Translations under genes and position numbers: made by a program
Part shown: piece by piece, positions 21,701 through 51,055 of the stretch
Layout of the letters: every line of letters begins with the position of its first letter
Position numbering within the stretch: position 1 is the stretch's first letter
Notes under the pieces: model-generated
Told to the model about the DNA's origin: nothing
The model's input: only the letters and a program-made list of their open reading frames with translations
Databases searched by the model: none
From: Candidatus Falkowbacteria bacterium
Lineage (GTDB): Bacteria; Patescibacteriota; Patescibacteriia; JACRDY01
Assembly: GCA_016218485.1 (NCBI GenBank)
Contig: JACRDY010000041.1
Span: 1 to 57,857, forward strand
Direction of reading: 5' to 3'
DNA length: 57,857 nucleotides

Positions 21701-24700
21701 CCCGGTACGCCGCAGCCCGGCGACCCCTACAGCTGTCAGACGGTCTATGGCAAGAATCCGGGTGATCCGGGTTATGATCCGCAGCTGACCCCTGGCTGCA
21801 AGGAGTTTTATTTTGCTAACCCCACGAGCGGCCCGTTTACCCCCAGCTATACTATTTCGTACCGGCTGCTCGCGGACACCGTGCTCTGCACCGAGGACTG
21901 CCATCCGTACCGGCTGAACAGCGGCCGTGGGCTGTCACTCGTGCATTACACCAATAATACCGAGATTACCGGAGAGCAGATTACTGTCGGCGGCACCTAT
22001 GACGCCAGCCAGATTGCCTTTGTGGCGCCGGATGCTTCGTGCAGTCAGAGTGGCGGGCTGTACACCCAGTGTGTGCCGGGCAGTAGTGTGACTATTCCTG
22101 CCGCCAGCAGCTATTGCCGTAGCCAGGGTGGTAGTTTCTCTAATAATATTTGTTACAACCTGAACGACCAGAGCGTCTGTACTACCTCTGTCCTGCAGGG
22201 CGAGTGGCAGATTCTGTCCGCCGAGTGCCGTTACCTGGGCACGCCGCAGGAGAGTACGGCCTGCACGAGCCCGGGCTGCCAGACGTATCGGGGGAATTTC
22301 TCGGGCAATCGGTATTTGTTGTTTGATGATAGTTTTGAAGCCAATGCCAATGGTTGGCTGACGCCGACACCGCCGCCGGCCTATGTCATTGACGCGCCGG
22401 GCCAACTGGCCGGGGAAAGTTTCTCGGTCGCCGGGCACTCCTTCACACCCATCAGCACCGGCAGTATCACCCTGCCCAACCCGCCGGGCGGCACACTGCC
22501 GGCCATGAGCTTGGCGCGTTCGCTCATGGTGGACAGCGGTAATGGCCCTGAGTCGCTGGTGCGCCAGAACAAGGCCTACATCTTGTCATTCTGGGCCAAA
22601 TCGCAACAGAGCGGCGGTAACAACCTGCGGGTGATGTTTGACGGTGTGCTGTACACGAGCGACTCGCCTGACAATTACTTCAGCCATGACCGCAGCCTGG
22701 ATACTAACTGGCAGTACTACCGTTTCGGTCCGGTCTTCGTGGATTGGGCTGAGCCTAACCAGTACTTGCTGTTCAGCTCGCAGGATAATAAGAAGTTCTA
22801 TCTGGATAATGTCCGGCTGGAAGAGGTGACCGATATGGAATTCCTGGTCCGTGACAGCTGGGAGACGCCAGCGAGCTGCGACCAGAATCAGGCTGGCGCG
22901 CCGGCGCCGCAGTACATGCTCGGCTGCACCGCCTACCAAGACGTCAACAACCAGGTGCAGTACCTCAAGTCATTCTCCAACCTCTGTGAAGAGTCGGCGA
23001 TCGGCTGTGAGGCGGTGATTGATACGCGCAATTCAGCCGCGCCTCGCGAGGAAATTTATAATTATATTTGCAGTTTGAGCGCGGCTTGCGTGCCGGCGCC
23101 CGGTCAGACTACCTGCGACTGTCAGTATGCTGATAGCGATAGTAATACTTTCAGCGCCTGCGCCGTGGCGCCGGGGGAGACTGATTGTAAGTTCACCTTA
23201 GATCAGCCGGAGAGTCAGACGGTAAAGGAGAGCGTGCTCGGTCTGGTACCCGACACCGCGTTGGTGCCCGCTGATCGGTTTACCTACCTCGTCAATCGGC
23301 CGGAGTTTTCCTGCGCCGCGGCTGACAAGGGCTGTACCGCCATGGCGCGTCCACAGCTGGACGTGGACAATCAAGTGATAGATTACCTCAAACCAAACAG
23401 CCAGGACGAGAATGTCCTGTACCTGCGCAGCAATCCTGATCAGTATGCTACCGCTCTCTGTACCGCGCCGGCGCTCGGCTGTACCGCCTACGACGGCGGC
23501 GGTGAGCTGAACCCGGTCTATTTCCATGATCCGGCGGAGCGCGTCTGCGAGTATCGTGCGGAGTCCGGCACCGGCACTTTTGCCTGGTTTGAGAAGGGCA
23601 GCGATACTGCCTGTCCCGATCACGGCGACCCCACCAGCAGGTCCTATGAAGATCCGGAGCCGCTGTCGGCATCACTCTTTGGCTATACCACCTGGTCGCG
23701 CTCCTGCCCGGCCAACTACAGCTCCTGCACCCAGTTCATTGATCCGGCGGGCGCGCCCGGCAATAACATTTACTACTACCAGGATGATCAGAATCTTGAC
23801 CGGACGGCGTGTAATGGCCTGGCCTCCCAGAAGAAAGGCTGCGTCCTCTTTGAGAACGACAACAAAATTAAATGGGCGGCGGCGCAGCAGGCCAGCTGGA
23901 ATCCGGCTGATTGGTCGCCGGAGCTCACCTACAGCAGCGCGGCGACGTACGCCCGCAGTGAAGCCAGCAACAACGCGGCCGTCTCGCCGATTAACTGCAC
24001 CTCTAGCCAGCTGGCGCCCGATGAGCAGATTCTCTGTAACAGTGTCGGCGGCGGCAATGACGCCAATGATCTCTTGAGCGTGCGGCGCGATCGCGTCTGC
24101 GCCGAGTGGATTTCGTGTCAGCGCTCCTACCAGGTGTTTGACCCGCAGATCAATGCCTACCGGACCATTTGTTTGGATCTGGACCCCTGCACCAAGTTTG
24201 GGGCCAATTCCACCGAGTGTATTCAGTCGCGGCAGATCAGCGATCCGGGGGCCATTGCTTCAGACAGCTATTTGTCGCTGGATAAGTACCTCCAGCGCTC
24301 GCGCGACTGGAGCGGCTATGAGTATTCCGGCTATTCCATCCCGCATCTGTACCCGGTCTGGAGCCTGTCCGAGTATGACTACGGCACCTGCAGTGATAGT
24401 GATATTCTGTGTCTGTCCGACAGCGGCTGTCCGGGCACGCAGACCTGTGACTTTAGAGATGTCAATTATCGGGTCAGCCGCGTCAATGTTACCGGCAACA
24501 CCCTGACTGATCTCTGTCTCGGGAAATACGACGTTACCGGTGGTTTTAGTCAGATCGGCTGTCCGCTAGGGGCTATTTCGCGGGCCGGCAAGAGCTGCCG
24601 CGGCTACCCTGAGTCTGACGCGCCGTTTGCGGCCAATACTACCGTGGGGCCGTTCAGCGACGCCAACCATTGTCAGGCCTATGGTGATGCCGATTGCGAT

Positions 24701-27217
24701 TGCCATTATGAGAAGCTGGTGACGGGTAATGGCGTCCGCTCCTACTTTGATTATCCTGAAGCCACCAGTGGCGGATTGACGGTCGGCGTACCGCAACGGA
24801 TTTGTTCTATAGCTGATGATGCCCACCCCGGTATGCTCGGTAAAGCCTGCGGTGACGGATCAGGGCCGGATAATGACGACCGTGATTGTATTGATAAAGA
24901 ACATGAGCCCAATTTTCTAGCTCCTGAACAGGGCAGCTATATTGGCAACCCGTTTAATGACGGCACGCCGTCGGAGAATGACGTGTGTATTCGTCCGACT
25001 GGTCAGACCACATATCTCGGCTGGCGCGGGTATTGTCTGGAATATGACGACAGTATCCATATCAACGGCAGCACCAAAGACAAAGCCTGTCTGACCTGGA
25101 TGCCGATTGACCTGGCCTCGGGCGAGCCGGATATTTACAGCAACAAGCCGACAGCCGGGTTTGCTTTCGGCAGTTACTCCACTCCCTACGAGTACTGCGC
25201 CGCTAATTCCGGCAGCAGAGGAGCGCTGGGGTATCGTCTGGATGATCGTCCTGCCAATCATGTTCGGCAGGATCAGAGGGTCCCGGAGAGCGCTGATTTT
25301 CCCGACCCTGCCTATGATTATATTTTCGTGGACCTAAACTGTCCGTTCTTTTCCGCCTGTAATTTACCAGGCACCGCATATCAGAGCGGTAATCCGACCA
25401 TCTGGCTGGGGGATAAGGAATATGGAGGTTTAGGCGCGTTGTGCGGCGCTGACTTCTGCCGTGAAGGTTTTGAGATCAGTTCCGGCATCCGCCGCATACC
25501 GGCCACGCCCCGTGAACGCGAGATTAATCAGAATGATCTCAAATATATTGAAATTATTCCCAATAATACCGGTCCTACTGCCGGTGACAGATTACGGACG
25601 CCATTCCGTTTGACTAATGAACTAGGGCTGGGTGGTGATTGGAGCTGGGGTTGGTGCGGTTACTCCGGGTGGGTTGATCCGCAAAGCGGTCAAGAAAGTA
25701 GAAATTATCCTTCAGCTAATAATTGTACCGGCAGTAGCGGCACAAACTTCTTCTACGATGGTGAGTTTACTGGTAATAATATTGATGATATTTTCCGTAA
25801 CAAAGATCATGCTTGTGAAAATTTTGCTCCCTTTAACGCCTTTGCTATTCAGGCGCATTTTGACAACAACGGTTTCCTGGATTACTGGCAGACCGGGTAC
25901 TGTGACGGCAGTCAGGATGGCAGCTACCTTGACATCGCTGATGTTAAATTTATTATGAAGGAGACCTGTGAGGAAACTGTTCTGGTGGCTAAAAGTGAAA
26001 ATACCGACCCGCAGAATTTCGGCAATAGCTTCTTTAATACCAATCGGGTCTGGGCGGACGGCGGGTATGACTTTGGCGGTCAGCTGGGATTTGCTACCGC
26101 GGATCCGCCATTTGGTAAGTATGGAAACTCAACGATTAGCTTTGCCAAAAAAATAGAAATTGGCAATCAGCAGGATGAAACCACGCTCTTTGGCACCGGT
26201 TTTCGCTGTTTGAGCGGCGACTGTCGCACAGGGTCAACCCGTGGCAGCTGTATTAACAATGCGTTTGACGCCTATCCGGGTACGGGGTTGGATTTTGCCG
26301 ACTTGGATTCGTGCGATCCGAGTTTAGAATCAGATCCGAGCTGTGATAACGACAGCGATAATCCTCAAGTGTACTGCGCCGGCACCGCCGGAGTCTGGAA
26401 CAGCGGCAGCGGTTCGGACCGGCTGCAGCAGCTCTTCGTGGTCAGTTTTAATTACCATGTTTGGAGTAATGGCGATGATAAGTATAATGTTGATTTGGCT
26501 AAAACATGGGGGCTGCCAACCACGAGCGTGTCGGTACGCCGCAGTCAAGCGCAGGCGCCGAAAGTCTGGGCCGCCATCTTTGACAGCATCATTGGCGACT
26601 ATACCACGGGCGAGCCGGGCACGGTGGCGATTAATGGTCAGACCCGTCCCACGGACGTCTACTATGGGGACAGTATTACCACGGTGATGAGCTTCTACGC
26701 GGCCAATGACAATGGCGCCCAGATGCCGTTGCGGCGGTTCCTGGTTGACTGGGGTGATGGCGCGGGGGCGATTGAACTGCCGGCCGGGCTGGACACCACC
26801 ACCTCGTATGCCAACTACAAAGAGAAGTGCAATGATACGGCCGGTAACTTCGGGGATCAGCGTGATCAGTCCTGCGTGGAAGCTCACTTTGAAGCTAAGA
26901 ACGTCTATACCTGTACGGCCAGTCAGGGTAGCGCCTACCAGACGTCCTGCAGCGCGTACAGCGTGACCCTGCCGGGTGAGAGCGCTCCCTATACCGGTCC
27001 CTGCTGCGTTTACACTCCGCGGGTAACCGTAGTAGACAACTGGGGAGCCTGTGCCAATGGTTGCTCGGGCGGCGCCTGTTTGGTGCTTAGCGTGTCTGAT
27101 GAAGACGCCAGTAGCAGTAATGAATGCTACTACCGTTCCGGTACTAAATTACTCTTGAAGAAAGCCACTGCCACTTACCCCGGCAAAATCGTGATTATCC
27201 CCAGCAGTGAACTGTAA
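18701..27217 (+). CDS. Giant (2838 aa) secreted Cys-rich surface protein with CBM-like and PKD-like modules
   Basis: Signal/TM segment at the N-terminus; about 110 Cys by hand count; NLVKNGSFE...YTLSLYAK and LSFWAK...FYLDNVRLEE modules; C-terminal LVDWGDG. Confidence 0.8.
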   Translation: MFDNHRGQSRSLKSRKIVGVLVLVSLLLPGILLFLPKTVTAQEVVTVGADVPRGIEKIFTTAANEIEKSFRLAIAKSAMMFSRKVAHNLAVKLARQTKAGTKGGSLDWRDMGQIMQDAGYAAFGEAVGTFSEKFFGDAAFLCDPNPYVRLVIGLALLQSIEPTPKCDGRQVIENYNALSAEWNSGQFLRRFSASFEPTQSDLGTFTEALSKVEQHKADVVQARILDKLWGSSQWFDVSDIISDQRISSRNQIEKFVNATMIEGPAQANQWEALYSLMTGAIASPFVFQFADSFVAEMMQLHLSGLFGNYDLCDANIPGLPKCNPKSGLDGSEWGSGTPRGQYSEQEIQERFASLLTPKIAVGGEYDIVSEFASCPDAQRPSQNTCVIDQSFSEAILNRYTVQEAIDQGVLHGDWSFGYTQAGGLSQPSYDSGYPASSMKKLRKARIIPVGWELAAEIVAGDTTLSGPVTLQQMVNAFNQTGDDKQCNTNDVNESPFCGLVDPDWVLKSPQQKCEANAVSPMLAEATVRQDWCADTRSCIKEKADGSCESWGYCTREANTWWFGGEECPAEYNTCQTFVNKDDNSRGTWLKSSLNYQSCDSTNAGCTWYAQAQNSVGDWVDTPQNPANDYNILALNSIYFDGDAQQCNASAAGCSEFIRSYSGSGTNLVKNGSFEDHYRITNNPTYPDVFYDWTVNLGTVETVDVQFGASAVALNNGGSIRQSVPVGYATSQRTFTLSLYAKDCAADTSVVFGPVSRSLQELAGDGYDPAQLTQWTTYALTYTFPINSSTDSMALTLTPGSGSTACKFDGLQVEEGATPTYYGEYGAVNLAYLKQPPAYLNCNGSPNQPADCSQYAPVCAADQVGCQKYTDLADNTVVPGIIKPEDICPAECSGYSTYKQDASNFYQEKFPLYFIPSTADSCQWEDSGCESFTNLDSVAAGGEGVESYSFLRRCQAPAPTSGDCRPFYTWEGSDSTGYQLKLYTLKMDPASGAAPLTIRQFPGTPQPGDPYSCQTVYGKNPGDPGYDPQLTPGCKEFYFANPTSGPFTPSYTISYRLLADTVLCTEDCHPYRLNSGRGLSLVHYTNNTEITGEQITVGGTYDASQIAFVAPDASCSQSGGLYTQCVPGSSVTIPAASSYCRSQGGSFSNNICYNLNDQSVCTTSVLQGEWQILSAECRYLGTPQESTACTSPGCQTYRGNFSGNRYLLFDDSFEANANGWLTPTPPPAYVIDAPGQLAGESFSVAGHSFTPISTGSITLPNPPGGTLPAMSLARSLMVDSGNGPESLVRQNKAYILSFWAKSQQSGGNNLRVMFDGVLYTSDSPDNYFSHDRSLDTNWQYYRFGPVFVDWAEPNQYLLFSSQDNKKFYLDNVRLEEVTDMEFLVRDSWETPASCDQNQAGAPAPQYMLGCTAYQDVNNQVQYLKSFSNLCEESAIGCEAVIDTRNSAAPREEIYNYICSLSAACVPAPGQTTCDCQYADSDSNTFSACAVAPGETDCKFTLDQPESQTVKESVLGLVPDTALVPADRFTYLVNRPEFSCAAADKGCTAMARPQLDVDNQVIDYLKPNSQDENVLYLRSNPDQYATALCTAPALGCTAYDGGGELNPVYFHDPAERVCEYRAESGTGTFAWFEKGSDTACPDHGDPTSRSYEDPEPLSASLFGYTTWSRSCPANYSSCTQFIDPAGAPGNNIYYYQDDQNLDRTACNGLASQKKGCVLFENDNKIKWAAAQQASWNPADWSPELTYSSAATYARSEASNNAAVSPINCTSSQLAPDEQILCNSVGGGNDANDLLSVRRDRVCAEWISCQRSYQVFDPQINAYRTICLDLDPCTKFGANSTECIQSRQISDPGAIASDSYLSLDKYLQRSRDWSGYEYSGYSIPHLYPVWSLSEYDYGTCSDSDILCLSDSGCPGTQTCDFRDVNYRVSRVNVTGNTLTDLCLGKYDVTGGFSQIGCPLGAISRAGKSCRGYPESDAPFAANTTVGPFSDANHCQAYGDADCDCHYEKLVTGNGVRSYFDYPEATSGGLTVGVPQRICSIADDAHPGMLGKACGDGSGPDNDDRDCIDKEHEPNFLAPEQGSYIGNPFNDGTPSENDVCIRPTGQTTYLGWRGYCLEYDDSIHINGSTKDKACLTWMPIDLASGEPDIYSNKPTAGFAFGSYSTPYEYCAANSGSRGALGYRLDDRPANHVRQDQRVPESADFPDPAYDYIFVDLNCPFFSACNLPGTAYQSGNPTIWLGDKEYGGLGALCGADFCREGFEISSGIRRIPATPREREINQNDLKYIEIIPNNTGPTAGDRLRTPFRLTNELGLGGDWSWGWCGYSGWVDPQSGQESRNYPSANNCTGSSGTNFFYDGEFTGNNIDDIFRNKDHACENFAPFNAFAIQAHFDNNGFLDYWQTGYCDGSQDGSYLDIADVKFIMKETCEETVLVAKSENTDPQNFGNSFFNTNRVWADGGYDFGGQLGFATADPPFGKYGNSTISFAKKIEIGNQQDETTLFGTGFRCLSGDCRTGSTRGSCINNAFDAYPGTGLDFADLDSCDPSLESDPSCDNDSDNPQVYCAGTAGVWNSGSGSDRLQQLFVVSFNYHVWSNGDDKYNVDLAKTWGLPTTSVSVRRSQAQAPKVWAAIFDSIIGDYTTGEPGTVAINGQTRPTDVYYGDSITTVMSFYAANDNGAQMPLRRFLVDWGDGAGAIELPAGLDTTTSYANYKEKCNDTAGNFGDQRDQSCVEAHFEAKNVYTCTASQGSAYQTSCSAYSVTLPGESAPYTGPCCVYTPRVTVVDNWGACANGCSGGACLVLSVSDEDASSSNECYYRSGTKLLLKKATATYPGKIVIIPSSEL

Positions 27218-27223
27218 ACCACT

Positions 27224-36291: not shown

Positions 36292-38181
36292 ATGGCTTTC
36301 TGGTCACGCAAAAAATCAAATACTGACAGTATCGCGCCGCCGCGGCTCAATGATGACGCCGAGAGTAAAGAGCTCTTGGAGGCGGAGTTGCACTACCGCG
36401 CCGGGGTGACGTCGGTCATTGACCTGATCGCGCCGGCCTCACTGCAGGTCAGCGCCACCTACCTGCGGCTGGGAACCAAGTTTGTCCGGACGCTCTTCGT
36501 CATCACCTATCCGCGCTATATTTCCGTGGGTTGGTTTTCACCGATCATTCATTTTAATAACGCGCTGGACATTTCCATGTTCTTCTATCCGGTTAAGTCA
36601 GCGGCGATTCTCAAAGACCTGAAAAAGCGCGCCGGTAACCTGGAGGCGGAAATCATGGCTGACAAAGACAAGGGCGCGCCGCGCGACCCGATCAAAGAAA
36701 CCGCGCTGCGTGATATTGAGAAACTGCGTGATGATCTGACGCAGGGCACGGAGCACTTTTTCCAGTACTCGCTCTATATCACGGTTTACGCCGACACGGA
36801 AGAGCAATTGGATGAGCTGACCGCTGACATTGAGGACATGTTCGGTTCACGCCTCGTCTACTCCAAGAAAGTACTGTACCAAGCCGAGCAGGGCTTTAAT
36901 TCCACGCTGCCGATGGGTAACGACGAGCTGGCGGTGCTCTTTAACATGAACACCTCGCCGGCCGCTTCATCTTTCCCCTTTATTTCTTTTGAGCTAACGA
37001 GCGACGACGGTATCATGTACGGCATTAACCGCCATAATAACAGCGTTATTCTGTTTGATAGATTTTCTCTGCAGAACGCCAACATGGTGGTCTTTGCCAC
37101 CTCCGGCGCCGGCAAGAGTTATGCCATCAAGCTGGAAATTCTGCGCAGCATGATGCTCGGGACTGACGTCATTGTCATTGATCCGGAAAAAGAGTATGTG
37201 CACCTGTCAGAAGCCGTGGGCGGCACCTACATCAATATTTCTCTGGCTTCGGACAGCAAGGTCAACCCGTTTGATCTGCCGCTGCCGACTGAGGAGGATG
37301 CCAAGACCGAGGATATTATCAGGAGCGCGGTTATCACCCTTAAAGGTCTCGTCAAACTGATGGTGGGCACATTAACATCTGAAGAAGATTCTATCGTGGA
37401 CCGGGCGCTCCTGGAAACGTACGCCAAGAAAGATATTACCGCTGAGTCAAACTTGAAGGATATTGAGCCGCCGATCATGCAGGATTTCCTGGAAGTGCTG
37501 GAAGGTATGGAGGGCGGGGCTGACCTAGTGCTCCGTCTGAAGAAATACACGGAGGGGACCTTTGCCGGCTTCGTCAATAATCCGACGAACGTGGACGTGA
37601 ATAATCAACTGGTGATCTTTTCCGTGCGTGATCTGGAAGATGAGCTGCGCCCCATTGCCATTTACAACCTCGTCAACTATATTTGGAATGTGGTCAGGTC
37701 TGAACGCAAGAAACGCCTGCTGGTGATTGATGAGGCCTGGTGGCTGATGCAGAATGAAGACTCGGCCAAGTTTATTTTCGCCCTGGTCAAGCGGTGCCGC
37801 AAATACTACCTCGGGGTCACCACCATTACCCAGGATGTCAACGATTTCCTCCAGTCAGAGTATGGCAAAGCTATTGTCAGTAACTCGGCGCTCCAGATTT
37901 TGATGAAACAGTCGCCGTCTTCCATTGATCAGGTGCAGAAAACTTTCCTCTTGACTGAAGGGGAAAAATACCTCTTGCTGGAGTGCGGCGTCGGGGAGGG
38001 GATATTCTTTGCCGGCAGCCGGCACGCCGCTATTCGCGTGGTAGCCTCGTACGCCGAAGATCAGCTGATTACCACTGACCCTAAACAGCTGCTGGAGATT
38101 GAAGCGGCCAAGCGCGATTTCGCCGAGCAGCGCGAGGCTGAACTGGCCGGTGCTTCGCCCGCCGAAGAGGGCAACGTTTAA
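36292..38181 (+). CDS. VirB4-like ATPase
   Basis: Walker A ATSGAGKS, VIVIDPEKEY, Walker B LLVIDEAW, RCRKYYLG, TQDVNDF. Confidence 0.9.
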   Translation: MAFWSRKKSNTDSIAPPRLNDDAESKELLEAELHYRAGVTSVIDLIAPASLQVSATYLRLGTKFVRTLFVITYPRYISVGWFSPIIHFNNALDISMFFYPVKSAAILKDLKKRAGNLEAEIMADKDKGAPRDPIKETALRDIEKLRDDLTQGTEHFFQYSLYITVYADTEEQLDELTADIEDMFGSRLVYSKKVLYQAEQGFNSTLPMGNDELAVLFNMNTSPAASSFPFISFELTSDDGIMYGINRHNNSVILFDRFSLQNANMVVFATSGAGKSYAIKLEILRSMMLGTDVIVIDPEKEYVHLSEAVGGTYINISLASDSKVNPFDLPLPTEEDAKTEDIIRSAVITLKGLVKLMVGTLTSEEDSIVDRALLETYAKKDITAESNLKDIEPPIMQDFLEVLEGMEGGADLVLRLKKYTEGTFAGFVNNPTNVDVNNQLVIFSVRDLEDELRPIAIYNLVNYIWNVVRSERKKRLLVIDEAWWLMQNEDSAKFIFALVKRCRKYYLGVTTITQDVNDFLQSEYGKAIVSNSALQILMKQSPSSIDQVQKTFLLTEGEKYLLLECGVGEGIFFAGSRHAAIRVVASYAEDQLITTDPKQLLEIEAAKRDFAEQREAELAGASPAEEGNV

Positions 38182-45155: not shown

Positions 45156-45202
45156 AAATAGTTTAGAATTATTTAATCTTTGGTGTGGTATGGTTTCGGG
45201 GT

Positions 45203-45901
45203 ATGGCGTATCCCCAAGATTATAATATCCACCGCCCGCCGCATCTCTACTCGGATGGTGAGATATATTTTATCACTTGCCGGACGGTGGATAAGAGGGA
45301 TTATTTTCATGGTTATGAAAATTTTATAGTCTCTAGTCTTAATTTAGCTAAAAATAAGTACCCTAGTAAATTATTTGCTTGGGCTATTCTTGGTAATCAT
45401 TACCATTTGTTATTAGAAGTGGTTAAAGGGAGAGACATTGCTAACATTATACGTTTTATTAATGGTCGTTCAGCGAAATTAATTCTTAATGAAATGAAAC
45501 GTGGGAGCGCACCCGGGAGCGACACGCCCTCTGGGCGTGTTACTGGGGTTCGGAACGACACAGCCTCCCCGGCCTCGTCAAGCGAAGCGGGGCGGGCTGG
45601 CGGTGTTATAGGTGGTATAGGTAAAACGATAACATGCCCAGAGGGCGTGTCGCTCCCCGGTAGACACTGCGTCTGGGAGCAGTATTTTGACCGATGTATT
45701 AGCACCGAGAAAGAATTTTACACCTATTTCAACTATATTAACCTTAACCCAATAAAGCACGGAAGAGTTAAAAACAAAAAGGAACTCCTAGAGTATCCCT
45801 TTTGCAGTTATCGGAATTGTGTAGATAAGTTCGGTCAGGCAGCAATGGATGATATCATTGCCCAGTATCCGGTGGAGGCGGGTGAGATGATGGGGGATTA
45901 A
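45203..45901 (+). CDS. REP-associated tyrosine transposase (RAYT) with an internal insertion
   Basis: YFITCRT, AWAILGNHYHLL (HUH), YFDRCI, NYINLNPIKHG, YPFCSY. Confidence 0.88.
   Translation: MAYPQDYNIHRPPHLYSDGEIYFITCRTVDKRDYFHGYENFIVSSLNLAKNKYPSKLFAWAILGNHYHLLLEVVKGRDIANIIRFINGRSAKLILNEMKRGSAPGSDTPSGRVTGVRNDTASPASSSEAGRAGGVIGGIGKTITCPEGVSLPGRHCVWEQYFDRCISTEKEFYTYFNYINLNPIKHGRVKNKKELLEYPFCSYRNCVDKFGQAAMDDIIAQYPVEAGEMMGD
45517..45655. repeat. Inverted REP doublet inside RAYT 2
   Basis: gagcgacacgccctctgggcgtgtta (45517-45542) and its near-perfect reverse complement (45630-45655). Confidence 0.85.
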
Positions 45902-45930: not shown

Positions 45931-47025
45931 TTATTGCCCAATATATTCAAAATGCATGGCATCACAGACGCTTTTAAAGTCTCCACCCCAGCGCCAACCT
46001 GCCGTTGATTTAAACGCGTTCATGACCGCATCGGGCAGATCATGGGGACAGACACCGGCCGGTTTTGGTTTCTTGTTAGGATTAGTGGATGGGTTAAAGT
46101 CGATTGCCAGACCATAAGAGTGTAGGCTCATTTTTTTCGGATTGTTGACATTGGGTCGGCAGTTGAATGTCCCGCCATTGATGAGTTTGTAGCCACCTAA
46201 TCCTGATGCATTAATTTTTGCAGCAACTTGACGTAAACTATCAGCGACTTTTTCGTTGATCATCAAGTATCCGTTACTAGTGGGGAAGTCAACCTTTGCT
46301 AATTTTACAGAGTCACAGACACCATAGGTGGTGGCGATTGATGCTTGATCAACGCTGCTAGTTGCTATTGGCTCCGAAGTTTCATTACCAGGAGTAATAT
46401 CTAGGGGTTCATACGCCACATACAGTATTTTTATCGGCTTGAGATTCACCAGCGCCGGATTGACGATTTTGAGCACCGTGTAACTGCCGAGCGCGATGAT
46501 GAGGCCGATGATTGCGCCGGTGATGTAGCCTTTGGCCGTGCCGATATTTTCCTGATTGCCGCCGGCGGTCAGCCAGATGAAGCCGCCGACCATGATCATG
46601 ATGACGGCCAGCACCCCGACAGCGGTCATGCCGAATTTGTACAGAGCGCCAATAAATTCAGCGATCCAGGGGATTTCGTAGTATTTAGCGCCGGATTCTT
46701 CCACAATCGGGACGTTGGAGGACAGCGTCAGACCCGGCAGCGGCGCCTCCAGCACCGGCGCGCTAAGCGGCGCGGTGGCTTTATCAGTGCCGGCTTTTTG
46801 GCAAGTGGCTATGTCACTGCAATTCTTTTTTTGGAAGTCGCCGCCCTTGCTGGCGCACTTCAGCTGATCAGTGCTGGTCCACGATTCCGGCATATCCTCG
46901 CACTGCGCTTTGAAGATACAGCAGCCGGGCGTGGCGGCTAGAGACATGAAAGGTAAGAATAACAAGTATCCTAGTGTTATGACTGTTATGAGCAGCTTAT
47001 GTCTCATACACAACTCGTTTATCAT
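45931..47025 (-). CDS. VirB2/TrbC pilin-like module fused to a C-terminal M15 Zn-peptidase
   Basis: Pilin-like hairpin MVGGFIWLTAGGNQE...GLIIALGSY; M15 motifs TFNCR, SLHSYGLAIDF, WGGDF, DAMHFE. Confidence 0.85.
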   Translation of the reverse strand: MINELCMRHKLLITVITLGYLLFLPFMSLAATPGCCIFKAQCEDMPESWTSTDQLKCASKGGDFQKKNCSDIATCQKAGTDKATAPLSAPVLEAPLPGLTLSSNVPIVEESGAKYYEIPWIAEFIGALYKFGMTAVGVLAVIMIMVGGFIWLTAGGNQENIGTAKGYITGAIIGLIIALGSYTVLKIVNPALVNLKPIKILYVAYEPLDITPGNETSEPIATSSVDQASIATTYGVCDSVKLAKVDFPTSNGYLMINEKVADSLRQVAAKINASGLGGYKLINGGTFNCRPNVNNPKKMSLHSYGLAIDFNPSTNPNKKPKPAGVCPHDLPDAVMNAFKSTAGWRWGGDFKSVCDAMHFEYIGQ

Positions 47026-48147
47026 TTAGTAGCCTACGGGATTAGGTCCGCCGATAAAGCACCATTGCTGCATGCAAACTTGTTTTGTCTGTGTCCAGCC
47101 AATACCGGTAAATAGCCCATTGCAAACTTCATATTTAGTTTTATGATTTTCAGATATTTTTGCTGCCAGCTCTCCACTGATAATGTTGTAAGTATTTTGA
47201 TCACACCAGTAACAACCATCTGTTGGCAGTGTGTTAGTAATATCCGCTTTAGCCAGCAGATCACTCAACCATTTGATATTAATCCAGACGCAGCTGCCGC
47301 GTTCATCATTCGCTAAACTTGTGATGCGAGCCTTAGGGTTTGTCGTAATACCGTCATTAATTTTTTGGCACGTAGATTGTTCTTCGGGTAGACCAGCCTT
47401 ACTCGTAAAGTCATCATTGAAATTTTTGCATGCCCCAGAGGGGAGCTGGTTGTCAAAGATTAGGTTGTTACTTTTGTCTGTTTGCGCCAGCGGTAAACAG
47501 AGTTTACCATTTGGACCAGTCATCCCGGTACAATTATTCTGATTATCACCCGAGCCGATTTGACAGCGCCAGCCGCATTTGATTTCATCACCACTTTTTA
47601 GGGTTACTTGTTGTCCTGTCGGATCAGTACAATTTATAGTTTCTTGGCTGGTGGGTACTTTTTCCGGACAAAAATCGCTAAGATAAGCTTGTTTAATCGC
47701 CGGGATGCGGAGCGGCGCGAAAATTACCAGTGACGGGTTAATAATCCGCATGACCGTGTAGCTGCCGAGCGCGATGATGAGGCCGATCAAAGCTCCAGTG
47801 ATGTAGCCCTTGGCCGTGCCGATATTCTCCTGGTTGCCCCCGGCGGTCAGCCAGATAAAACCGGCGACCATAATAACAATAACGGCCAGCACGCCAGCTG
47901 CGCCCACGCCAAAAGTATAGAGGTTTTCAATATATTTTGAAATATCTATTTTACCGCTGGTCAGTTGACCGAACGGAACCTCCAAGTCCAGTTCCGGCGC
48001 TTTGGCAATACAGGTATTGGCGTACCAGCGGTTGCCCGCTTGTTTGCATTCAGCTTCAGTCCAGCCGCCCTGGGCGAGCGCCGGGGTGACTATTAGAAAT
48101 GCCAGGCAGAAGAGGAAGAAAAATTGGAGGAGGTGTTTTTTGAACAT
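47026..48147 (-). CDS. VirB2/TrbC pilin-like module fused to a Cys-rich C-terminal domain
   Basis: Same module MVAGFIWLTAGGNQENIGTAKGYITG; Cys-rich tail; its TAA abuts the ATG of the next gene. Confidence 0.8.
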   Translation of the reverse strand: MFKKHLLQFFFLFCLAFLIVTPALAQGGWTEAECKQAGNRWYANTCIAKAPELDLEVPFGQLTSGKIDISKYIENLYTFGVGAAGVLAVIVIMVAGFIWLTAGGNQENIGTAKGYITGALIGLIIALGSYTVMRIINPSLVIFAPLRIPAIKQAYLSDFCPEKVPTSQETINCTDPTGQQVTLKSGDEIKCGWRCQIGSGDNQNNCTGMTGPNGKLCLPLAQTDKSNNLIFDNQLPSGACKNFNDDFTSKAGLPEEQSTCQKINDGITTNPKARITSLANDERGSCVWINIKWLSDLLAKADITNTLPTDGCYWCDQNTYNIISGELAAKISENHKTKYEVCNGLFTGIGWTQTKQVCMQQWCFIGGPNPVGY

Positions 48148-48165
48148 AGGGAAGGTGGTTCTCTA

Positions 48166-48243
48166 GAGTGACACAGCCTTTGGCTGTGTTATGACATAGC
48201 TCCAGCCGTGCTGTTTATAACACAGCCAGAGGCTGTGTCACTC
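48166..48243. repeat. Intergenic inverted REP doublet related to the one in RAYT 2
   Basis: gagtgacacagcctttggctgtgtta ... taacacagccagaggctgtgtcactc. Confidence 0.85.
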
Positions 48244-48255
48244 CCACGAACGTAT

Positions 48256-49497
48256 CTACTTCAGCTTAATCTGCTGCAAAGTACCGCTGAATGTATCAAC
48301 AAAAGAGAGCGTGCCGCCGTCTTGGCTGACCACCAGGTTCTGGCCGTTGTATTCGCCCTCGGGTACGGCCAAGAGCGCGGTGGTGTCGTTCGTCAGATCA
48401 ATCCGGTAAAAGTCATCCGGCACGCCGGCGGCGTATTCCGGCACCAGGCCGCTGCCGCGCTCCAGCTGCTTTGGTACGGCGCAGTAGACAGTATTCGTGT
48501 CCGCAAACGTGCATTTATCAGCCCAGGTCTGGATGTTCAAGGGAGTGCGGTTGGCGCCAATACTGTCGCCGGCGGCATCCACGATCCAGAGTGAGGGGTT
48601 GAGGTTGGTGGCGCTGTGGTAGACGCTGTACAGCAGGCGGTTGCCATCCGGTGCCCAGCGCTGCCGGAAGTCGCGGCCTTCAATAATAGAAACATTGAAC
48701 CGTTCTTTGTTCTGGCCGATGAAGTAGAGGTATTGCTGTTCCAGGTTGATACTCTCATTGAAGGTGGCGATGATCTGCTGATTGGGCGACCAGTCCACGT
48801 GAACGTTTTCATCTTGTGCTCCGAGTGTTTCAATCCGGCGGAAGCCGGAGCCGTCATCGTTGGCGGTGGAGAGGTACCGATCCGCCTCATCCACCGTCCA
48901 GTTTTTGAAGACCAGCTGGTCATTATTCGGCGAAAAGGCAAAGTCTTTCCACTGTTTAGGCAGTGTCACCTGTTTTTTGTTGGTGAAATTGTAGACGATA
49001 TTGGCGCCATCGGGGTATTCCAGCACCACCTTGTCGCGCTGCGGCGACCAGGTGACGGTCTGGACGTTACTGAAGACTTTGTCATCAAGCGCGATTGCCA
49101 CGCCGGCGCGCTCAACGCGGTAAAATTTGCCATCGCCGGGGTTGTAGTAGACAATGCCGTTGCCGTCGGCGCTGGGTACCGCGCTACTGGCCGGGCCGCT
49201 GGCGAGGCTGGTGACACGCGTCAATCCGCCATTGGCCACCGCCGCGGCGCCGGAGGGAGCGGCCGTGGGGACGTTCTGCGCCGGTACCAGCTTGCCATTG
49301 ACATTAATGTAAATCGGGCGGTTAAGGTTGGCGCCGGCGCTGGGCAGGCCGTTGACAATACCCTCATTGACGGCGTTGAGCGGCGCGCCTGGCTCAATGG
49401 TCGGCCGCAGGAACAGGTAGTAGAGCAGGTAGCCGAGAATCAGCGTCAGGGCAATAAAGACAATAATGAAAATGATTTTTTTAGCGCGGTCTGACAT
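48256..49497 (-). CDS. Membrane-anchored beta-propeller (TolB/WD40-like) protein
   Basis: N-terminal TM; repeated blades VTWSPQRD, FAFSPNND, VDWSPNQQ, RWAPDGN. Confidence 0.78.
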   Translation of the reverse strand: MSDRAKKIIFIIVFIALTLILGYLLYYLFLRPTIEPGAPLNAVNEGIVNGLPSAGANLNRPIYINVNGKLVPAQNVPTAAPSGAAAVANGGLTRVTSLASGPASSAVPSADGNGIVYYNPGDGKFYRVERAGVAIALDDKVFSNVQTVTWSPQRDKVVLEYPDGANIVYNFTNKKQVTLPKQWKDFAFSPNNDQLVFKNWTVDEADRYLSTANDDGSGFRRIETLGAQDENVHVDWSPNQQIIATFNESINLEQQYLYFIGQNKERFNVSIIEGRDFRQRWAPDGNRLLYSVYHSATNLNPSLWIVDAAGDSIGANRTPLNIQTWADKCTFADTNTVYCAVPKQLERGSGLVPEYAAGVPDDFYRIDLTNDTTALLAVPEGEYNGQNLVVSQDGGTLSFVDTFSGTLQQIKLK

Positions 49498-49513: not shown

Positions 49514-51055
49514 TTAAAAGCAATTGAAGGGGATAAGGGTGGTCAGCTTAATACCTGAACCAATAACACCACCGATTGAATCACCCATCGCCGCGCGTCC
49601 GGCGCAGCTGAACATCGTACTGATGGATAAGATGGCAATAGCGATTACCAAGAGCAGGATGATATCTACTAGCACCAGGCCGGCGATTTCAAAAATTTCT
49701 ATTGGTTTACTCTCAATTTCCTTGGCTTTCATGGCAGCGTCAGAATTACTGCCCGCGCCTAGGCTTTTGATATTTGATTCAATAAACCACTCCATCCCCG
49801 GCCTGACAAAAGCTTTTTTAAAGGGACCACCGTAATAGTACATGGTAAAATGAAAGTTGATGTAGAGAATCGTCAGACCGAAACTGTCCAGTATGTTTAT
49901 CCATGACAGTTTGAGCAGGTAGGCGGTGGCCAGTTGGGTGGCTTGCTTGGCCACGGCGACTTTGGTCTGTGCGGACTCTTTCATTTTTTTCAGTCTGGCT
50001 TTTTCTGCGCGCAGGCGATTGGCCACTGCTTTTTGGCCTGCATTGACTTTGCCGACGCCGGTCTTGGCCGCGCTGCCGACTTTCTTGGCGCCCCGCCCGA
50101 GGCTGGTATTCCCCGCCCAGTCACCAGCCTTTTTGGCGCCACCTTTGACTTTATCACCGACGAACTGCTTACCCTTGTTGATGGTGTCACTGGCGGCTTG
50201 TTTTCTCTTGTTGAGGCCTTGTCCGATATTACCGGCGGTATCTCTGGCAAATTGCGCTCCTCGGTTCAGGCCGCTTTTGGCGGCATTTATACCTTGTCCG
50301 ACTCGTGCCGCGCCAGCTCGCGCTTTTTGACCGGCGGCGGTGTCTCCCAGCCGCCGTCCGAGGTTGGCCGCGCCTTTGCCGGCTAGTTTACCCGCGCCTT
50401 TCAGACCTTGACCCGCCAGTCTGCCGGCGCCTTTAACACCCCGATCAATAATGTCGTTATTCTTGTTAAGGGCTCTGCCAACGTTGCCGAGTTTTTGCGC
50501 GCCCCGCCCGGCCAGAGCGCCGGCTTTTTTGGCGCCCCGCCCGACACTAGTGTTACCCGCCCAGTTGGCGGCCTGACCCGCTCCTCGTTTGACTGCCTGC
50601 TTGCCCTGGTTAATTTTACCGCCCACCGCCTGTTTGGCTTGGCCGACACCCTGGCGAACGCCCGCCGCGGTGTTTCTCGCGGCATTGTAGCCTTGTCCGG
50701 CCACGTTAGCGGCTTTTTTAGCTCCACGTCCGGCAGCGGTATTTCCCGCCCAGTTGGCCGCTTGTCCGGCGCCTTGTTTCACTGCTTGTTTACCGCGGGT
50801 GGCCGCGCCGCCGACGAACTGTTTACCCTTGTTGATGGTGTCGCCGACCGCTTGTTTTCTCCGATTAAGGCCTTCTTTGGCGGCCGCGGTTTTTGCTCTG
50901 GCGGCTTGTCCCAGCTGCTGGGCTCGTTGTCCGGTTTGCTGGAGACGACGAAAGGCTTCCGGCACCGGATCGTCTGCCGCGTGACGGTAGCTCCTGGCGC
51001 GACGCAGAGCCCGGCGTCGAGCCCGATCATCCGGTTGTACGGTATCAACAACCAT
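49514..51055 (-). CDS. Gly/Ala/Lys-rich repeat protein with C-terminal membrane segments
   Basis: Three WAGNT..GRGAKK repeats, two DTINKGKQFVG repeats, hydrophobic C-terminus. Confidence 0.75.
   Translation of the reverse strand: MVVDTVQPDDRARRRALRRARSYRHAADDPVPEAFRRLQQTGQRAQQLGQAARAKTAAAKEGLNRRKQAVGDTINKGKQFVGGAATRGKQAVKQGAGQAANWAGNTAAGRGAKKAANVAGQGYNAARNTAAGVRQGVGQAKQAVGGKINQGKQAVKRGAGQAANWAGNTSVGRGAKKAGALAGRGAQKLGNVGRALNKNNDIIDRGVKGAGRLAGQGLKGAGKLAGKGAANLGRRLGDTAAGQKARAGAARVGQGINAAKSGLNRGAQFARDTAGNIGQGLNKRKQAASDTINKGKQFVGDKVKGGAKKAGDWAGNTSLGRGAKKVGSAAKTGVGKVNAGQKAVANRLRAEKARLKKMKESAQTKVAVAKQATQLATAYLLKLSWINILDSFGLTILYINFHFTMYYYGGPFKKAFVRPGMEWFIESNIKSLGAGSNSDAAMKAKEIESKPIEIFEIAGLVLVDIILLLVIAIAILSISTMFSCAGRAAMGDSIGGVIGSGIKLTTLIPFNCF

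What the first reader, a model, noticed from the sequence alone, without database searches (positions are those of the whole stretch)
46440..47900. Constant pilin module with swappable cargo in tandem genes
Seen: a 46-aa core differs at only about five residues between the two genes and is highly similar as DNA (about 46470-46630 vs 47735-47895). The flanking N- and C-terminal domains are unrelated and look more AT-rich, and the genes are coupled TAA-ATG. Inference: gene conversion or recombination at the constant module shuffles displayed domains, making a polymorphic pilin-cargo system.
Basis: partly seen in the sequence, partly recalled or inferred. Interest (0 to 1): 0.65.

Follow-up and report, generated by a model that had tools for sequence, protein, structure and literature searches.

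The report
Pilin-hairpin proteins with swappable wall-cutting heads
Two neighbouring genes of an ultrasmall (Patescibacteria/CPR) bacterium share the two-helix membrane core of a conjugation-type pilin, kept alike by gene conversion. One carries a cell-wall peptidase as its outer head, the other a cysteine-rich domain of unknown fold. In related genomes the same slot holds other wall-cutting enzymes.

Summary
Genes A (47026-48147, minus strand, 373 aa) and B (45931-47025, minus strand, 364 aa) abut as TAA-ATG. They share an 80-aa VirB2-like "T4SS_pilin" hairpin that is 74% identical (E=6e-36), with a 104-nt stretch 90% identical as DNA. Everything else is unrelated.

Only the C-terminal domains are AT-rich; the N-terminal ones are not. 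GC3 drops from 0.65-0.72 to 0.38-0.41 within 2-3 codons of the module's 3' edge.

B's head is an intact M15 (LAS) zinc peptidase. A's head is a cysteine-rich 225-aa domain with no recognisable fold.

The locus is syntenic in eight related genomes and linked to virB4. Hairpins cluster by genome (60-100% identical within a genome, 34-69% between), including a 276-nt perfectly identical tract. A's head and N-domain are orthologous across genomes. This indicates gene conversion of the module.

The slot after A holds M15, VanY, Amidase_2 or M23 heads in different genera, and one genome has SLT and C39-like heads instead of A. Among 126 close module relatives there are 69 head clusters, and the recognisable ones are almost all peptidoglycan hydrolases.

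Cargo turns over on an evolutionary timescale, but I found no evidence of an active shuffling switch. I found no paper describing this fusion architecture.

The parts
47026..48147 (-). Gene A, 373 aa: signal peptide, small Cys N-domain, VirB2-like hairpin, 225-aa Cys-rich head
   Evidence: ORF. PF18895 25.1 bits. Orthologues at 30-39% full-length identity (BLASTP) in G002, G004, G005, L039 and L042; G003 carries an A-type head.
48070..48147 (-). A signal peptide (MFKKHLLQFFFLFCLAFLIVTPALAQ), Sec type, cleavage site inferred
   Evidence: Read from the sequence. Helix 4-19 in the model.
47944..48069 (-). A N-domain (WTEAEC...WY...C motif), orthologous across genomes
   Evidence: BLAST 37-51% to P0022, P0027, P0018, P0033, P0011 and others. 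Alignment A4.
47704..47943 (-). A hairpin module (residues 69-148, two helices plus NQENIGTAKG loop)
   Evidence: The AF2 model has helices 69-101 and 106-136.
47753..47856 (-). High-identity tract in A (104 nt, 90.4% to B 46475-46578)
47029..47703 (-). A head: 225 aa, about 11-15 invariant Cys, GC3 0.39, fold not recognised
   Evidence: Alignments A4/A5. Model pLDDT 83.5, pTM 0.77. No Foldseek hit with E<0.2 in PDB or BFVD. GC3 change point after codon 150.
45931..47025 (-). Gene B, 364 aa: signal peptide, Cys N-domain, hairpin, linker, M15 peptidase
   Evidence: ORF. Pfam. Syntenic orthologues L042 (44% over 376 aa) and G004 (37% over 334 aa).
46933..47025 (-). B signal peptide region (MINELCMRHKLLITVITLGYLLFLPFMSLAA). 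The true start may be Met1 or Met7. A public gene call starts at Met27 and loses it.
   Evidence: (P0003, 338 aa).
46666..46932 (-). B N-domain (Cys-rich, then Pro/Ala linker and the YYEIPWIAE lead-in to the hairpin)
   Evidence: It belongs to the largest N-domain cluster (61 of 120 proteins), which pairs with 24 head clusters.
46426..46665 (-). B hairpin module (residues 121-200)
   Evidence: PF18895 27.5 bits..
46475..46578 (-). High-identity tract in B (partner of A 47753-47856)
45943..46140 (-). B Peptidase_M15_4 catalytic core (residues 296-361) with the SLHSYGLAID and DAMHFE motifs
   Evidence: PF13539 E=4e-16, 59.8 bits against a cut-off of 25. Aligned to Ply500 L-Ala-D-Glu peptidase 2vo9 with both motifs matching.
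48148..48255 (.). Spacer between the PD40-like gene and A, with a compound palindrome (GTGACACAGCC...GGCTGTGTCAC). Possible terminator, regulator or REP-like element.
   Evidence: Read from the sequence. Copies on contigs C49 and C1.
48256..49497 (-). Conserved upstream partner: 413-aa N-terminally anchored beta-propeller (PD40-like) protein
   Evidence: Weak PF07676 match. 39-58% orthologues directly next to the array in all eight loci.
49514..51055 (-). 513-aa Ala/Gly/Lys-repeat protein with a C-terminal membrane region. Syntenic but variable in length (233-513 aa).
36292..38181 (+). VirB4-type ATPase of the monoderm-type T4SS, 7.7 kb from B
   Evidence: PF19044, PF12846. 67-81% orthologues lie 2-9 kb from the array in G002, G003, G004, G005 and G028.
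27224..30091 (+). TrbL/VirB6-like 955-aa membrane protein (T4SS)
   Evidence: PF04610 24 bits, just under the cut-off.
34725..35201 (+). PrgI (VirB3-like) protein (T4SS)
   Evidence: PF12666 34.7 bits.

Best explanation
A and B are Sec-exported membrane proteins built on the two-helix hairpin of the Patescibacterial VirB2-like pilin family.

Topology (inferred): the signal peptide is cleaved, the N-domain lies outside, helix 1 crosses inwards, a short cytoplasmic loop follows, helix 2 crosses outwards, and the C-terminal head lies outside.

Heads: B's is an active-looking LAS/M15 zinc peptidase that cuts peptidoglycan stem peptides. A's is a conserved disulfide-rich domain of unknown activity.

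Setting: the pair is the local version of a conserved, virB4-linked locus (ClpC-like, repeat protein, PD40-like propeller, 2-4 hairpin-head genes, RecG) in ABY1-type Patescibacteria. The heads in this locus are drawn from many peptidoglycan-hydrolase families.

Function (inferred, not shown): the hairpin holds the enzymes at, or feeds them into, the T4SS/pilus apparatus. There they would open the cell wall of the bacterium itself and/or of its host cell.

Evolution (shown comparatively): the central part of the hairpin is repeatedly overwritten between neighbouring copies by gene conversion, so hairpins stay matched within a genome. Heads are replaced over genus-level time by recombination at the 3' border of the module.
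For: - Module identity and hairpin.
- M15 motifs intact.
- Synteny in eight loci.
- virB4 linkage conserved, and nearly adjacent in G028.
- T4SS genes in the window.
- Heads of 126 close module relatives fall into 69 BLAST clusters. Pfam-recognisable ones are SLT 15, M15_4 5, VanY 4, C39_2 4, Phage_lysozyme 3, M23 3, SLT_3 3, Amidase_2 2, NlpC/P60 2, 3D 2.
- The slot after A carries M15_4 (G000, L042, G004), VanY (G003), Amidase_2 (L039, G002) or M23 (G005). G001 carries SLT and C39-like instead.
- Hairpins cluster by genome: the ML tree needs 6 label changes, the minimum possible, against a shuffled mean of 12.6 (0 of 200 shuffles as low). Identity matrix.
- Conversion tracts: 276 nt at 100% in G003, 140 nt at 98% in L039.
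- Excess synonymous identity in the window pair.
- A's N-domain and head are both orthologous across genomes while the hairpin between them follows the genome. This is the signature of an internal conversion tract.
- GC3 change points after codon 150 (A) and codon 197 (B), 0 of 500 permutations each.
- The own genome has no SLT-type hydrolase, so B is a candidate for the T4SS wall-opening function.
Against: - No experiment, expression data or localisation is available.
- A's Pfam score is just under the cut-off.
- The array lies 7.7 kb from virB4 with housekeeping genes (recG, a comF-like PRTase gene) in between, so co-regulation with the T4SS is not shown.
- A 19-25 kDa head on every subunit would be hard to fit into a VirB2-type filament, so polymerisation is doubtful for these proteins.
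- In the window pair the conversion signal is old (about 90% over 104 nt, with many synonymous differences).
- The low GC3 of the heads has other possible causes: fast evolution under AT-biased mutation, or lack of GC-biased conversion.
- Assemblies are MAGs.
Confidence: 0.62

Rival explanations
1. Generic anchor. The hairpin is only a convenient membrane anchor for housekeeping autolysins that remodel the bacterium's own wall during growth and division, with no role in the T4SS or a pilus.
For: - The heads are ordinary wall-hydrolase families.
- The locus sits among housekeeping genes (ClpC-like, recG).
- The neighbouring PD40-like propeller resembles envelope proteins.
Against: - The anchor is specifically the T4SS_pilin family rather than a simple single helix.
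- Linkage to virB4 is kept across the family and is nearly direct in G028.
- The same module builds the 11-gene short-pilin array and the giant surface proteins of this genome.
Confidence: 0.22
2. Birth and death instead of conversion. Each genome's hairpins are alike because the genes arose by recent tandem duplication in that lineage, followed by replacement of the head.
For: - Copy number varies from 2 to 4 per locus.
- Some neighbouring genes also share N-domains: G002 64%, G001 63%, G004 44%.
Against: - The A-type N-domain and A-type head flank the discordant hairpin in five or more genomes, at the same position next to the PD40-like gene.
- The G003 tract is 276 nt at 100% with sharp edges, and its flanks are at random similarity.
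- The same head families would have had to be re-acquired in the same order many times.
Confidence: 0.12
3. Selection only. The hairpins are alike within a genome because they must pack against each other or a common partner (co-evolution), without DNA exchange.
For: - Hairpins of interacting subunits are expected to co-vary.
- In the window pair many synonymous sites differ.
Against: - Synonymous codon identity exceeds expectation.
- Perfect or near-perfect DNA tracts occur in G003, L039 and G001.
- Selection on protein sequence cannot produce 276 identical nucleotides.
Confidence: 0.05
4. Delivered weapons. The heads are released, or presented on a filament, and act on the host cell's wall as effectors in the manner of a polymorphic toxin system. 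On this reading the variety of heads tracks host wall chemistry.
For: - A constant N-terminal part with a highly variable C-terminal enzyme: 69 head clusters in 126 proteins, and one N-domain cluster paired with 24 head clusters.
- The epibiotic lifestyle and T4SS essentiality in Saccharibacteria (PMC10633639, PMC11665869).
- Heads are compositionally atypical.
Against: - No immunity-like gene follows either gene.
- No cleavage or release site is evident.
- A's head is conserved rather than variable.
- The host of this organism is unknown.
Confidence: 0.25

Closest known systems
VirB2-like pilins and pilin arrays of Patescibacteria (Pfam PF18895/PF04956; Quinonero-Coronel et al. 2025, PMC12102498; Wang et al. 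2023, PMC10633639)
   Same: Same hairpin family, same phylum, tandem arrangement and linkage to a monoderm-type virB4 cluster. The own genome also has a classic array of 11 short pilins.
   Different: - Described pilins are small and sequence-divergent within arrays: mean 25% identity, maximum 54% (PMC12102498).
- Here the proteins are 330-480 aa with enzyme heads, and their hairpins are 60-100% identical within a genome.
- The paper infers that pilus biogenesis needs no VirB1 homologue. In the passages I searched it does not mention hydrolase fusions.
Cell-wall hydrolases of monoderm conjugation systems (PrgK of pCF10, CwlT of ICEBs1, TcpG)
   Same: Membrane-anchored peptidoglycan hydrolases encoded with a Gram-positive-type T4SS. 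The likely job, opening the wall for the apparatus, is the same.
   Different: Those use a plain N-terminal anchor and SLT, CHAP or NlpC domains in one multidomain protein. Here the anchor is a pilin hairpin, each gene carries one head, and the heads are exchangeable across genera. This comparison rests on my own knowledge plus the reference list of PMC12102498.
Modular type IV pilins (PilB/PilC of Streptococcus sanguinis; PMC8179133, PMC9934059)
   Same: A pilin module fused to a functional C-terminal module that the filament would display.
   Different: A different, unrelated pilin superfamily (type 4 filaments, with a prepilin-peptidase signal). Their modules are adhesive, not wall-degrading. 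Here display on a filament is not shown.
Polymorphic toxin systems and antibacterial T4SS effectors of Xanthomonas type (PMC8740702)
   Same: A constant trafficking part with variable C-terminal enzymes, among them peptidoglycan hydrolases, used in cell-cell contact.
   Different: No immunity genes, no spare cassette arrays and no XVIPCD-type signal. Here the constant part is a membrane hairpin.
Phage endolysin Ply500 L-alanyl-D-glutamate peptidase (PDB 2vo9), M15/LAS family
   Same: B's head shares the SxHxxGxAxD and DxxH zinc and catalytic motifs.
   Different: About 30% local identity, E=0.001. Here it is fused behind a pilin hairpin rather than to a wall-binding domain.

Membership tests
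Pfam PF18895 T4SS_pilin (Patescibacterial VirB2-like pilins) | Profile match at or above the curated cut-off (26.6 bits) | tested here: met
   B scores 27.5 bits. A scores 25.1 bits, just under, but its module is 74% identical to B's. 109 of 126 close relatives match.
Pfam PF18895 T4SS_pilin (Patescibacterial VirB2-like pilins) | Signal peptide followed by two hydrophobic helices joined by a short polar loop | tested here: met
   Read from the sequence. The AF2 model has helices 69-101 and 106-136.
Pfam PF18895 T4SS_pilin (Patescibacterial VirB2-like pilins) | Small protein (about 100-200 aa) consisting of little more than the hairpin | tested here: not met
   A is 373 aa and B 364 aa, with 164-225-aa heads. 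They are fusion proteins that contain the module, not plain pilins.
Pfam PF18895 T4SS_pilin (Patescibacterial VirB2-like pilins) | Encoded near virB4 and other T4SS genes | tested here: met
   7.7 kb from virB4 in the window. 2-9 kb in G002, G003, G004, G005 and G028.
Pfam PF18895 T4SS_pilin (Patescibacterial VirB2-like pilins) | Polymerises into a T4SS-dependent pilus | not testable with these tools
   Needs microscopy or biochemistry.
Peptidase M15 / LAS zinc peptidases (gene B head) | Profile match above the cut-off | tested here: met
   PF13539 scores 59.8 bits against a cut-off of 25, E=4e-16.
Peptidase M15 / LAS zinc peptidases (gene B head) | Zinc ligands H-x6-D and a distal H, with the acidic catalytic residue (D/E-x-x-H) | tested here: met
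   SLHSYGLAID and DAMHFE align with SNHNYGVAVD and DYPHFE of 2vo9. The residue roles are from my knowledge of the family.
Peptidase M15 / LAS zinc peptidases (gene B head) | Hydrolysis of peptidoglycan stem peptide | not testable with these tools
   Needs an enzyme assay.
Polymorphic toxin systems | Cognate immunity gene directly downstream of each toxin gene | tested here: not met
   A is followed at once by B. B is followed by a convergent IS200-like gene.
Polymorphic toxin systems | Constant N-terminal part with interchangeable C-terminal domains across relatives | tested here: met
   One N-domain cluster pairs with 24 head clusters; 69 head clusters in 126 proteins.
Pilin antigenic-variation systems (pilE/pilS type) | One expressed gene plus promoterless partial silent copies that donate sequence to the variable part | tested here: not met
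   Both genes are complete, with their own signal peptides. The exchanged part is the constant module, not the variable one. No other close copies exist in the genome.
Modular type IV pilins (type 4 filament superfamily) | Class III signal peptide and N-terminal alpha-1 pilin helix | tested here: not met
   The signal peptides are Sec-type and the pilin part matches VirB2/TrbC-type profiles only.

The most novel reading that the evidence does not exclude
ABY1-type Patescibacteria build an enzymatically armed conjugative-type appendage. Hairpin-head proteins co-assemble with the short VirB2-like pilins at the T4SS and present interchangeable wall-cutting heads that breach the host's (or their own) peptidoglycan. 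Gene conversion keeps all hairpins of a genome mutually compatible, and recombination at the hairpin's 3' border lets lineages swap heads to match new host walls. This would also supply the 'missing VirB1' of the Patescibacterial T4SS.
Probability: 0.25. Interest if true: 0.85.

Novelty: new variant of a known kind. Interest (0 to 1): 0.62.

Why it matters
The T4SS and its pilin genes are essential for the epibiotic life of the one Patescibacterium tested genetically (PMC10633639), and their role is called completely unknown (PMC11665869).

A large family joins the pilin hairpin to peptidoglycan hydrolases and sits next to the T4SS genes: 22,439 representative clusters match the module, and most of the closest 150 carry heads. 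That gives a concrete, testable idea of how these cells get an appendage through a wall. It would also explain why most of these genomes seem to lack VirB1.

The locus is also a clean natural example of a short internal conversion tract that keeps one module uniform while the domains on either side evolve independently. A sharp compositional break marks the junction.

Tried and rejected
- Word-indexed homologue search with A's head found only the query itself.
- Foldseek of the full-length A model and of the well-predicted head alone (pLDDT 83.5) found nothing with E<0.06 in PDB or BFVD. A PDB profile search with alignment A4 also found nothing. A's head therefore stays unassigned. Faint hits to kiwellin and cerato-platanin (double-psi barrels) are not significant, and I do not rely on them.
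- A whole-genome search with B's head at per-genome E-values found almost nothing in 40 relatives. BLAST on the fetched syntenic loci later showed M15 orthologues in G004 and L042. The early impression that B's cargo is unique was wrong.
- A pilE/pilS-style antigenic variation system was rejected: there are no silent copies, and the exchanged segment is the constant one.
- A toxin-immunity pair was rejected because no immunity gene is present.
- Codon usage for expression level was rejected as the cause of the GC3 break, because the break lies inside single genes.
- The 276-nt identical tract could be an assembly artefact. I judge this unlikely, because both copies are assembled 1.2 kb apart on one contig, but it is not excluded.
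Full report
**What is there**

Two minus-strand genes lie head to tail. Gene A is 47026-48147 (373 aa) and gene B is 45931-47025 (364 aa). A's TAA stop is directly followed by B's ATG.

BLASTP finds one significant match between them: 80 residues, 74% identical, E=6e-36 (A 69-148, B 121-200). The rest scores as noise. Within this match a 48-residue stretch differs at three positions.

At DNA level the module is about 74% identical over 240 nt. A 104-nt central segment is 90.4% identical (A 47753-47856, B 46475-46578).

Identical codons at identical residues number 33 of 57, against 21-24 expected from the genome's codon usage (P=0.001-0.008). The DNA likeness is therefore more than protein conservation explains.

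**Composition**

The genome is 0.98 Mb with 50.8% GC. The median GC3 of long ORFs is 0.62 and the 5th percentile is 0.45.

| Region | Gene A GC3 | Gene B GC3 |
|---|---|---|
| N-domain | 0.62 | 0.67 |
| Hairpin module | 0.68 | 0.76 |
| C-terminal head | 0.39 | 0.42 |

(All values.)

- The N-domains and modules are typical of the genome.
- The heads lie in the lowest 2.5-3.5% of 190-codon windows.
- A maximum-likelihood change-point search puts the break after codon 150 in A (module ends at 148) and after codon 197 in B (module ends at 200). No permutation of 500 reached the observed value in either gene.

**What the parts are**

- The shared module matches Pfam PF18895 T4SS_pilin, the VirB2-like pilin family of Patescibacteria. 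B scores 27.5 bits and A 25.1 bits against a cut-off of 26.6. TrbC/VirB2 is a weaker second match.
- Both proteins start with Sec-type signal peptides.
- The AlphaFold model of A shows the module as a helical hairpin, helices 69-101 and 106-136.
- B's head matches Peptidase_M15_4 (E=4e-16). It aligns to the Listeria phage endolysin Ply500 L-Ala-D-Glu peptidase (2vo9), with the SxHxxGxAxD and DxxH motifs in place.
- A's head has about 11-15 invariant cysteines across ten homologues and models well on its own (pLDDT 83.5, pTM 0.77).
- A's head has no significant structural neighbour in PDB or BFVD, and no PDB sequence relative.

**Genomic setting**

- The window carries a monoderm-type T4SS cluster on the plus strand:
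  - a 2838-aa protein (18701-27217)
  - a TrbL/VirB6-like protein (27224-30091)
  - a PrgI/VirB3-like protein (34725-35201)
  - a VirB4-type ATPase (36292-38181)
- Record titles of related loci name Buchananbacteria, Uhrbacteria, Magasanikbacteria and Kerfeldbacteria, which are ABY1-type Patescibacteria.
- The own genome holds 16 genes with the module: A and B, a pair of giant proteins on contig C3 (723 and 3258 aa), eleven short pilins in tandem on C55, and one more on C59.
- The own genome has no SLT-type hydrolase.

**Comparative anatomy**

I fetched the syntenic locus from six genomes of the same family (G001-G006), one of another family (G028), and two metagenome contigs (L039, L042). G006's contig ends before the array, so eight loci were informative. 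RecG, ClpC and PD40-like identities place L039 and L042 at about the same distance as the family members.

The gene order is kept: ClpC-like, a repeat-rich membrane protein, a 413-aa PD40-like propeller, 2-4 hairpin-head genes, then recG. VirB4 orthologues (67-81% identical) lie 2-9 kb from the array in G002, G003, G004, G005 and G028.

Content of the slot after the PD40-like gene:

| Genome | Hairpin-head genes, in order |
|---|---|
| G000 (this window) | A-type, M15_4 |
| L042 | A-type, M15_4, unknown |
| L039 | A-type, Amidase_2 |
| G004 | A-type, A-like N-domain with unknown head, M15_4, 3D-like |
| G002 | A-type, Amidase_2, 3D-like type |
| G003 | A-type head, VanY |
| G005 | A-type, M23, unknown |
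| G001 | SLT, C39-like |

- Gene A is essentially fixed and orthologous. Both its N-domain and its head have orthologues.
- B has full-length orthologues in L042 (44% identity) and G004 (37%).
- The second and later positions hold different hydrolase families in different genera.

**Concerted evolution of the hairpin**

- Hairpins are 60-100% identical within a genome: 100% in G003, 99% in G001, 90% in L039, 74% in the window. Between genomes they are 34-69% identical.
- An ML tree of the 80-residue module groups copies by genome. It needs 6 label changes, the minimum possible, against 12.6 for shuffled labels (0 of 200 as low).
- A-type heads are spread over five of these genome groups.
- At DNA level the G003 pair (A-type head and VanY head) shares 276 consecutive identical nucleotides, from -18 to +257 of the module. 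The flanks are at random similarity.
- L039 has 140 nt at 98% and G001 has 293 nt at 89%.
- A's N-domain and head, which flank the module, both follow orthology while the module follows the genome. The simplest account is therefore repeated gene conversion of an internal tract, not fresh duplication in each lineage.
- In the window pair the tract covers the end of helix 1, the loop and helix 2. The module's last residues remain type-specific: PLRIP in A-type, KPIKI in B-type.
- The eleven short pilins of the same genome average 46% pairwise identity in the aligned module (inventory).

**Family-wide picture**

- An exhaustive profile-free search with B's module found 22,439 representative clusters at E<=0.001 and 3,425 at E<=1e-10.
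- Of the best 150, 126 have one module, a median 72-aa N-terminal part and a median 188-aa head. The other 24 are multi-module proteins.
- The heads fall into 69 BLAST clusters and average ten cysteines each.
- Pfam recognises about a third of the heads, and nearly all of those are peptidoglycan hydrolases: SLT 15, M15_4 5, VanY 4, C39_2 4, Phage_lysozyme 3, M23 3, SLT_3 3, Amidase_2 2, NlpC/P60 2, 3D 2.
- One N-domain cluster, the one B belongs to, pairs with 24 head clusters. A-type heads occur with both A-like and B-like N-domains.
- Domain recombination at the module has therefore happened many times in the family.

**Mechanism proposed**

Shown:
- the domain architecture
- an intact M15 active-site motif
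- conserved linkage to the T4SS genes
- module homogenisation by DNA exchange
- head turnover between genera
- a compositional break at the junction

Inferred:
- Both the N-domain and the head lie outside the membrane, as in VirB2-type pilins.
- The proteins sit at, or enter, the T4SS/pilus assembly.
- The heads cut peptidoglycan to let the apparatus through the bacterium's own wall and/or the host's.

Whether these large subunits polymerise is doubtful on steric grounds. A role as sparse, basal or tip subunits, or as anchored accessory enzymes, fits better.

The low GC3 of the heads may mean import from AT-richer relatives; several related loci have 40-43% GC. It may instead reflect fast evolution under AT-biased mutation, or GC-biased conversion acting only on the shared part. 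I cannot separate these.

**Comparison with what is known**

- VirB2-like pilin arrays in Patescibacteria are published. They are described as small, divergent (mean 25% identity, maximum 54%) and essential in Southlakia epibionticum (PMC12102498, PMC10633639, PMC12857230).
- PMC12102498 infers that the pilus needs no VirB1 homologue.
- In the texts I searched I found no mention of pilin-hydrolase fusions, nor of gene conversion among them.
- Pfam holds both domains, so the architecture is visible in databases.
- The closest functional analogues are the anchored hydrolases of Gram-positive conjugation systems and the modular type IV pilins of Streptococcus sanguinis (PMC8179133). Neither is a homologue of this arrangement.
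- Earlier notes of this scan describe the same architecture in another genome (e1-1104851) and the M15 fusion here (e1-5087127). I reached the same reading from my own searches before seeing them. They are not independent evidence.

**Verdict**

- Gene conversion at the constant module is well supported by the relatives.
- A "polymorphic cargo system" holds as a description of family-level evolution, not as a demonstrated shuffling mechanism in this organism.
- I class it as a new variant of a known kind, of moderate to high interest.

Noticed in passing
window 48148-48255; also G000 contig C49:60387-60458 and C1:10255-10305: The spacer between the PD40-like gene and gene A holds a compound palindrome (GTGACACAGCC..GGCTGTGTTAT....ATAACACAGCC..GGCTGTGTCAC). 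Near-identical arms recur on two other contigs. It could be a REP-like element or a bidirectional terminator.
   Followed up: partly
window 45185-45901 (+): A 238-aa IS200-like Y1 transposase ORF (PF01797, 25 bits) lies convergent to gene B. Its middle (about 45450-45700) is 57-63% GC inside 28-45% GC flanks and encodes a low-complexity Ser/Pro/Gly stretch, as if a GC-rich element were inserted. A 128-aa relative sits at the same place in G001 (L036:8307-8693).
   Followed up: no
window 18701-38181 (+): A monoderm-type T4SS cluster: a 2838-aa protein with no Pfam match, a VirB6-like protein, a PrgI-like protein and VirB4. It is interrupted by metK (31670-32851) and a 23S-rRNA-IVP/bAvd-like four-helix protein (35867-36259) directly upstream of virB4.
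   Followed up: partly
window 49514-51055 (-): A 513-aa protein made of Ala/Gly/Lys-rich repeats (GQGAANWAGNT..GRGAKKA) with a C-terminal membrane region. Its syntenic counterparts range from 233 to 408 aa and share only the C-terminal part.
   Followed up: partly
G000 contig C55:7140-12584 and C3:8653-20615: The same genome has eleven tandem short VirB2-like pilin genes (mean pairwise module identity 46%) and an adjacent pair of 723-aa and 3258-aa proteins that begin with the same module (67% identical to each other).
   Followed up: partly
window 46945-47025: A public gene call for B (P0003, 338 aa) starts at Met27 and drops the signal peptide. Met1 (abutting A's stop) or Met7 gives a normal Sec signal.
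   Followed up: partly
L038 (G028:C4:48000-60000): In a genome of another family the PD40-like gene lies between two hairpin-head genes (524 and 443 aa, heads unassigned). virB4 lies about 1.5 kb upstream, separated from the first hairpin-head gene only by the repeat-protein homologue. This is the tightest T4SS linkage seen.
   Followed up: partly
record titles: Many related MAG records are titled 'uncultured Gammaproteobacteria bacterium', although their content is plainly Patescibacterial. The titles look like placeholder labels.
   Followed up: no
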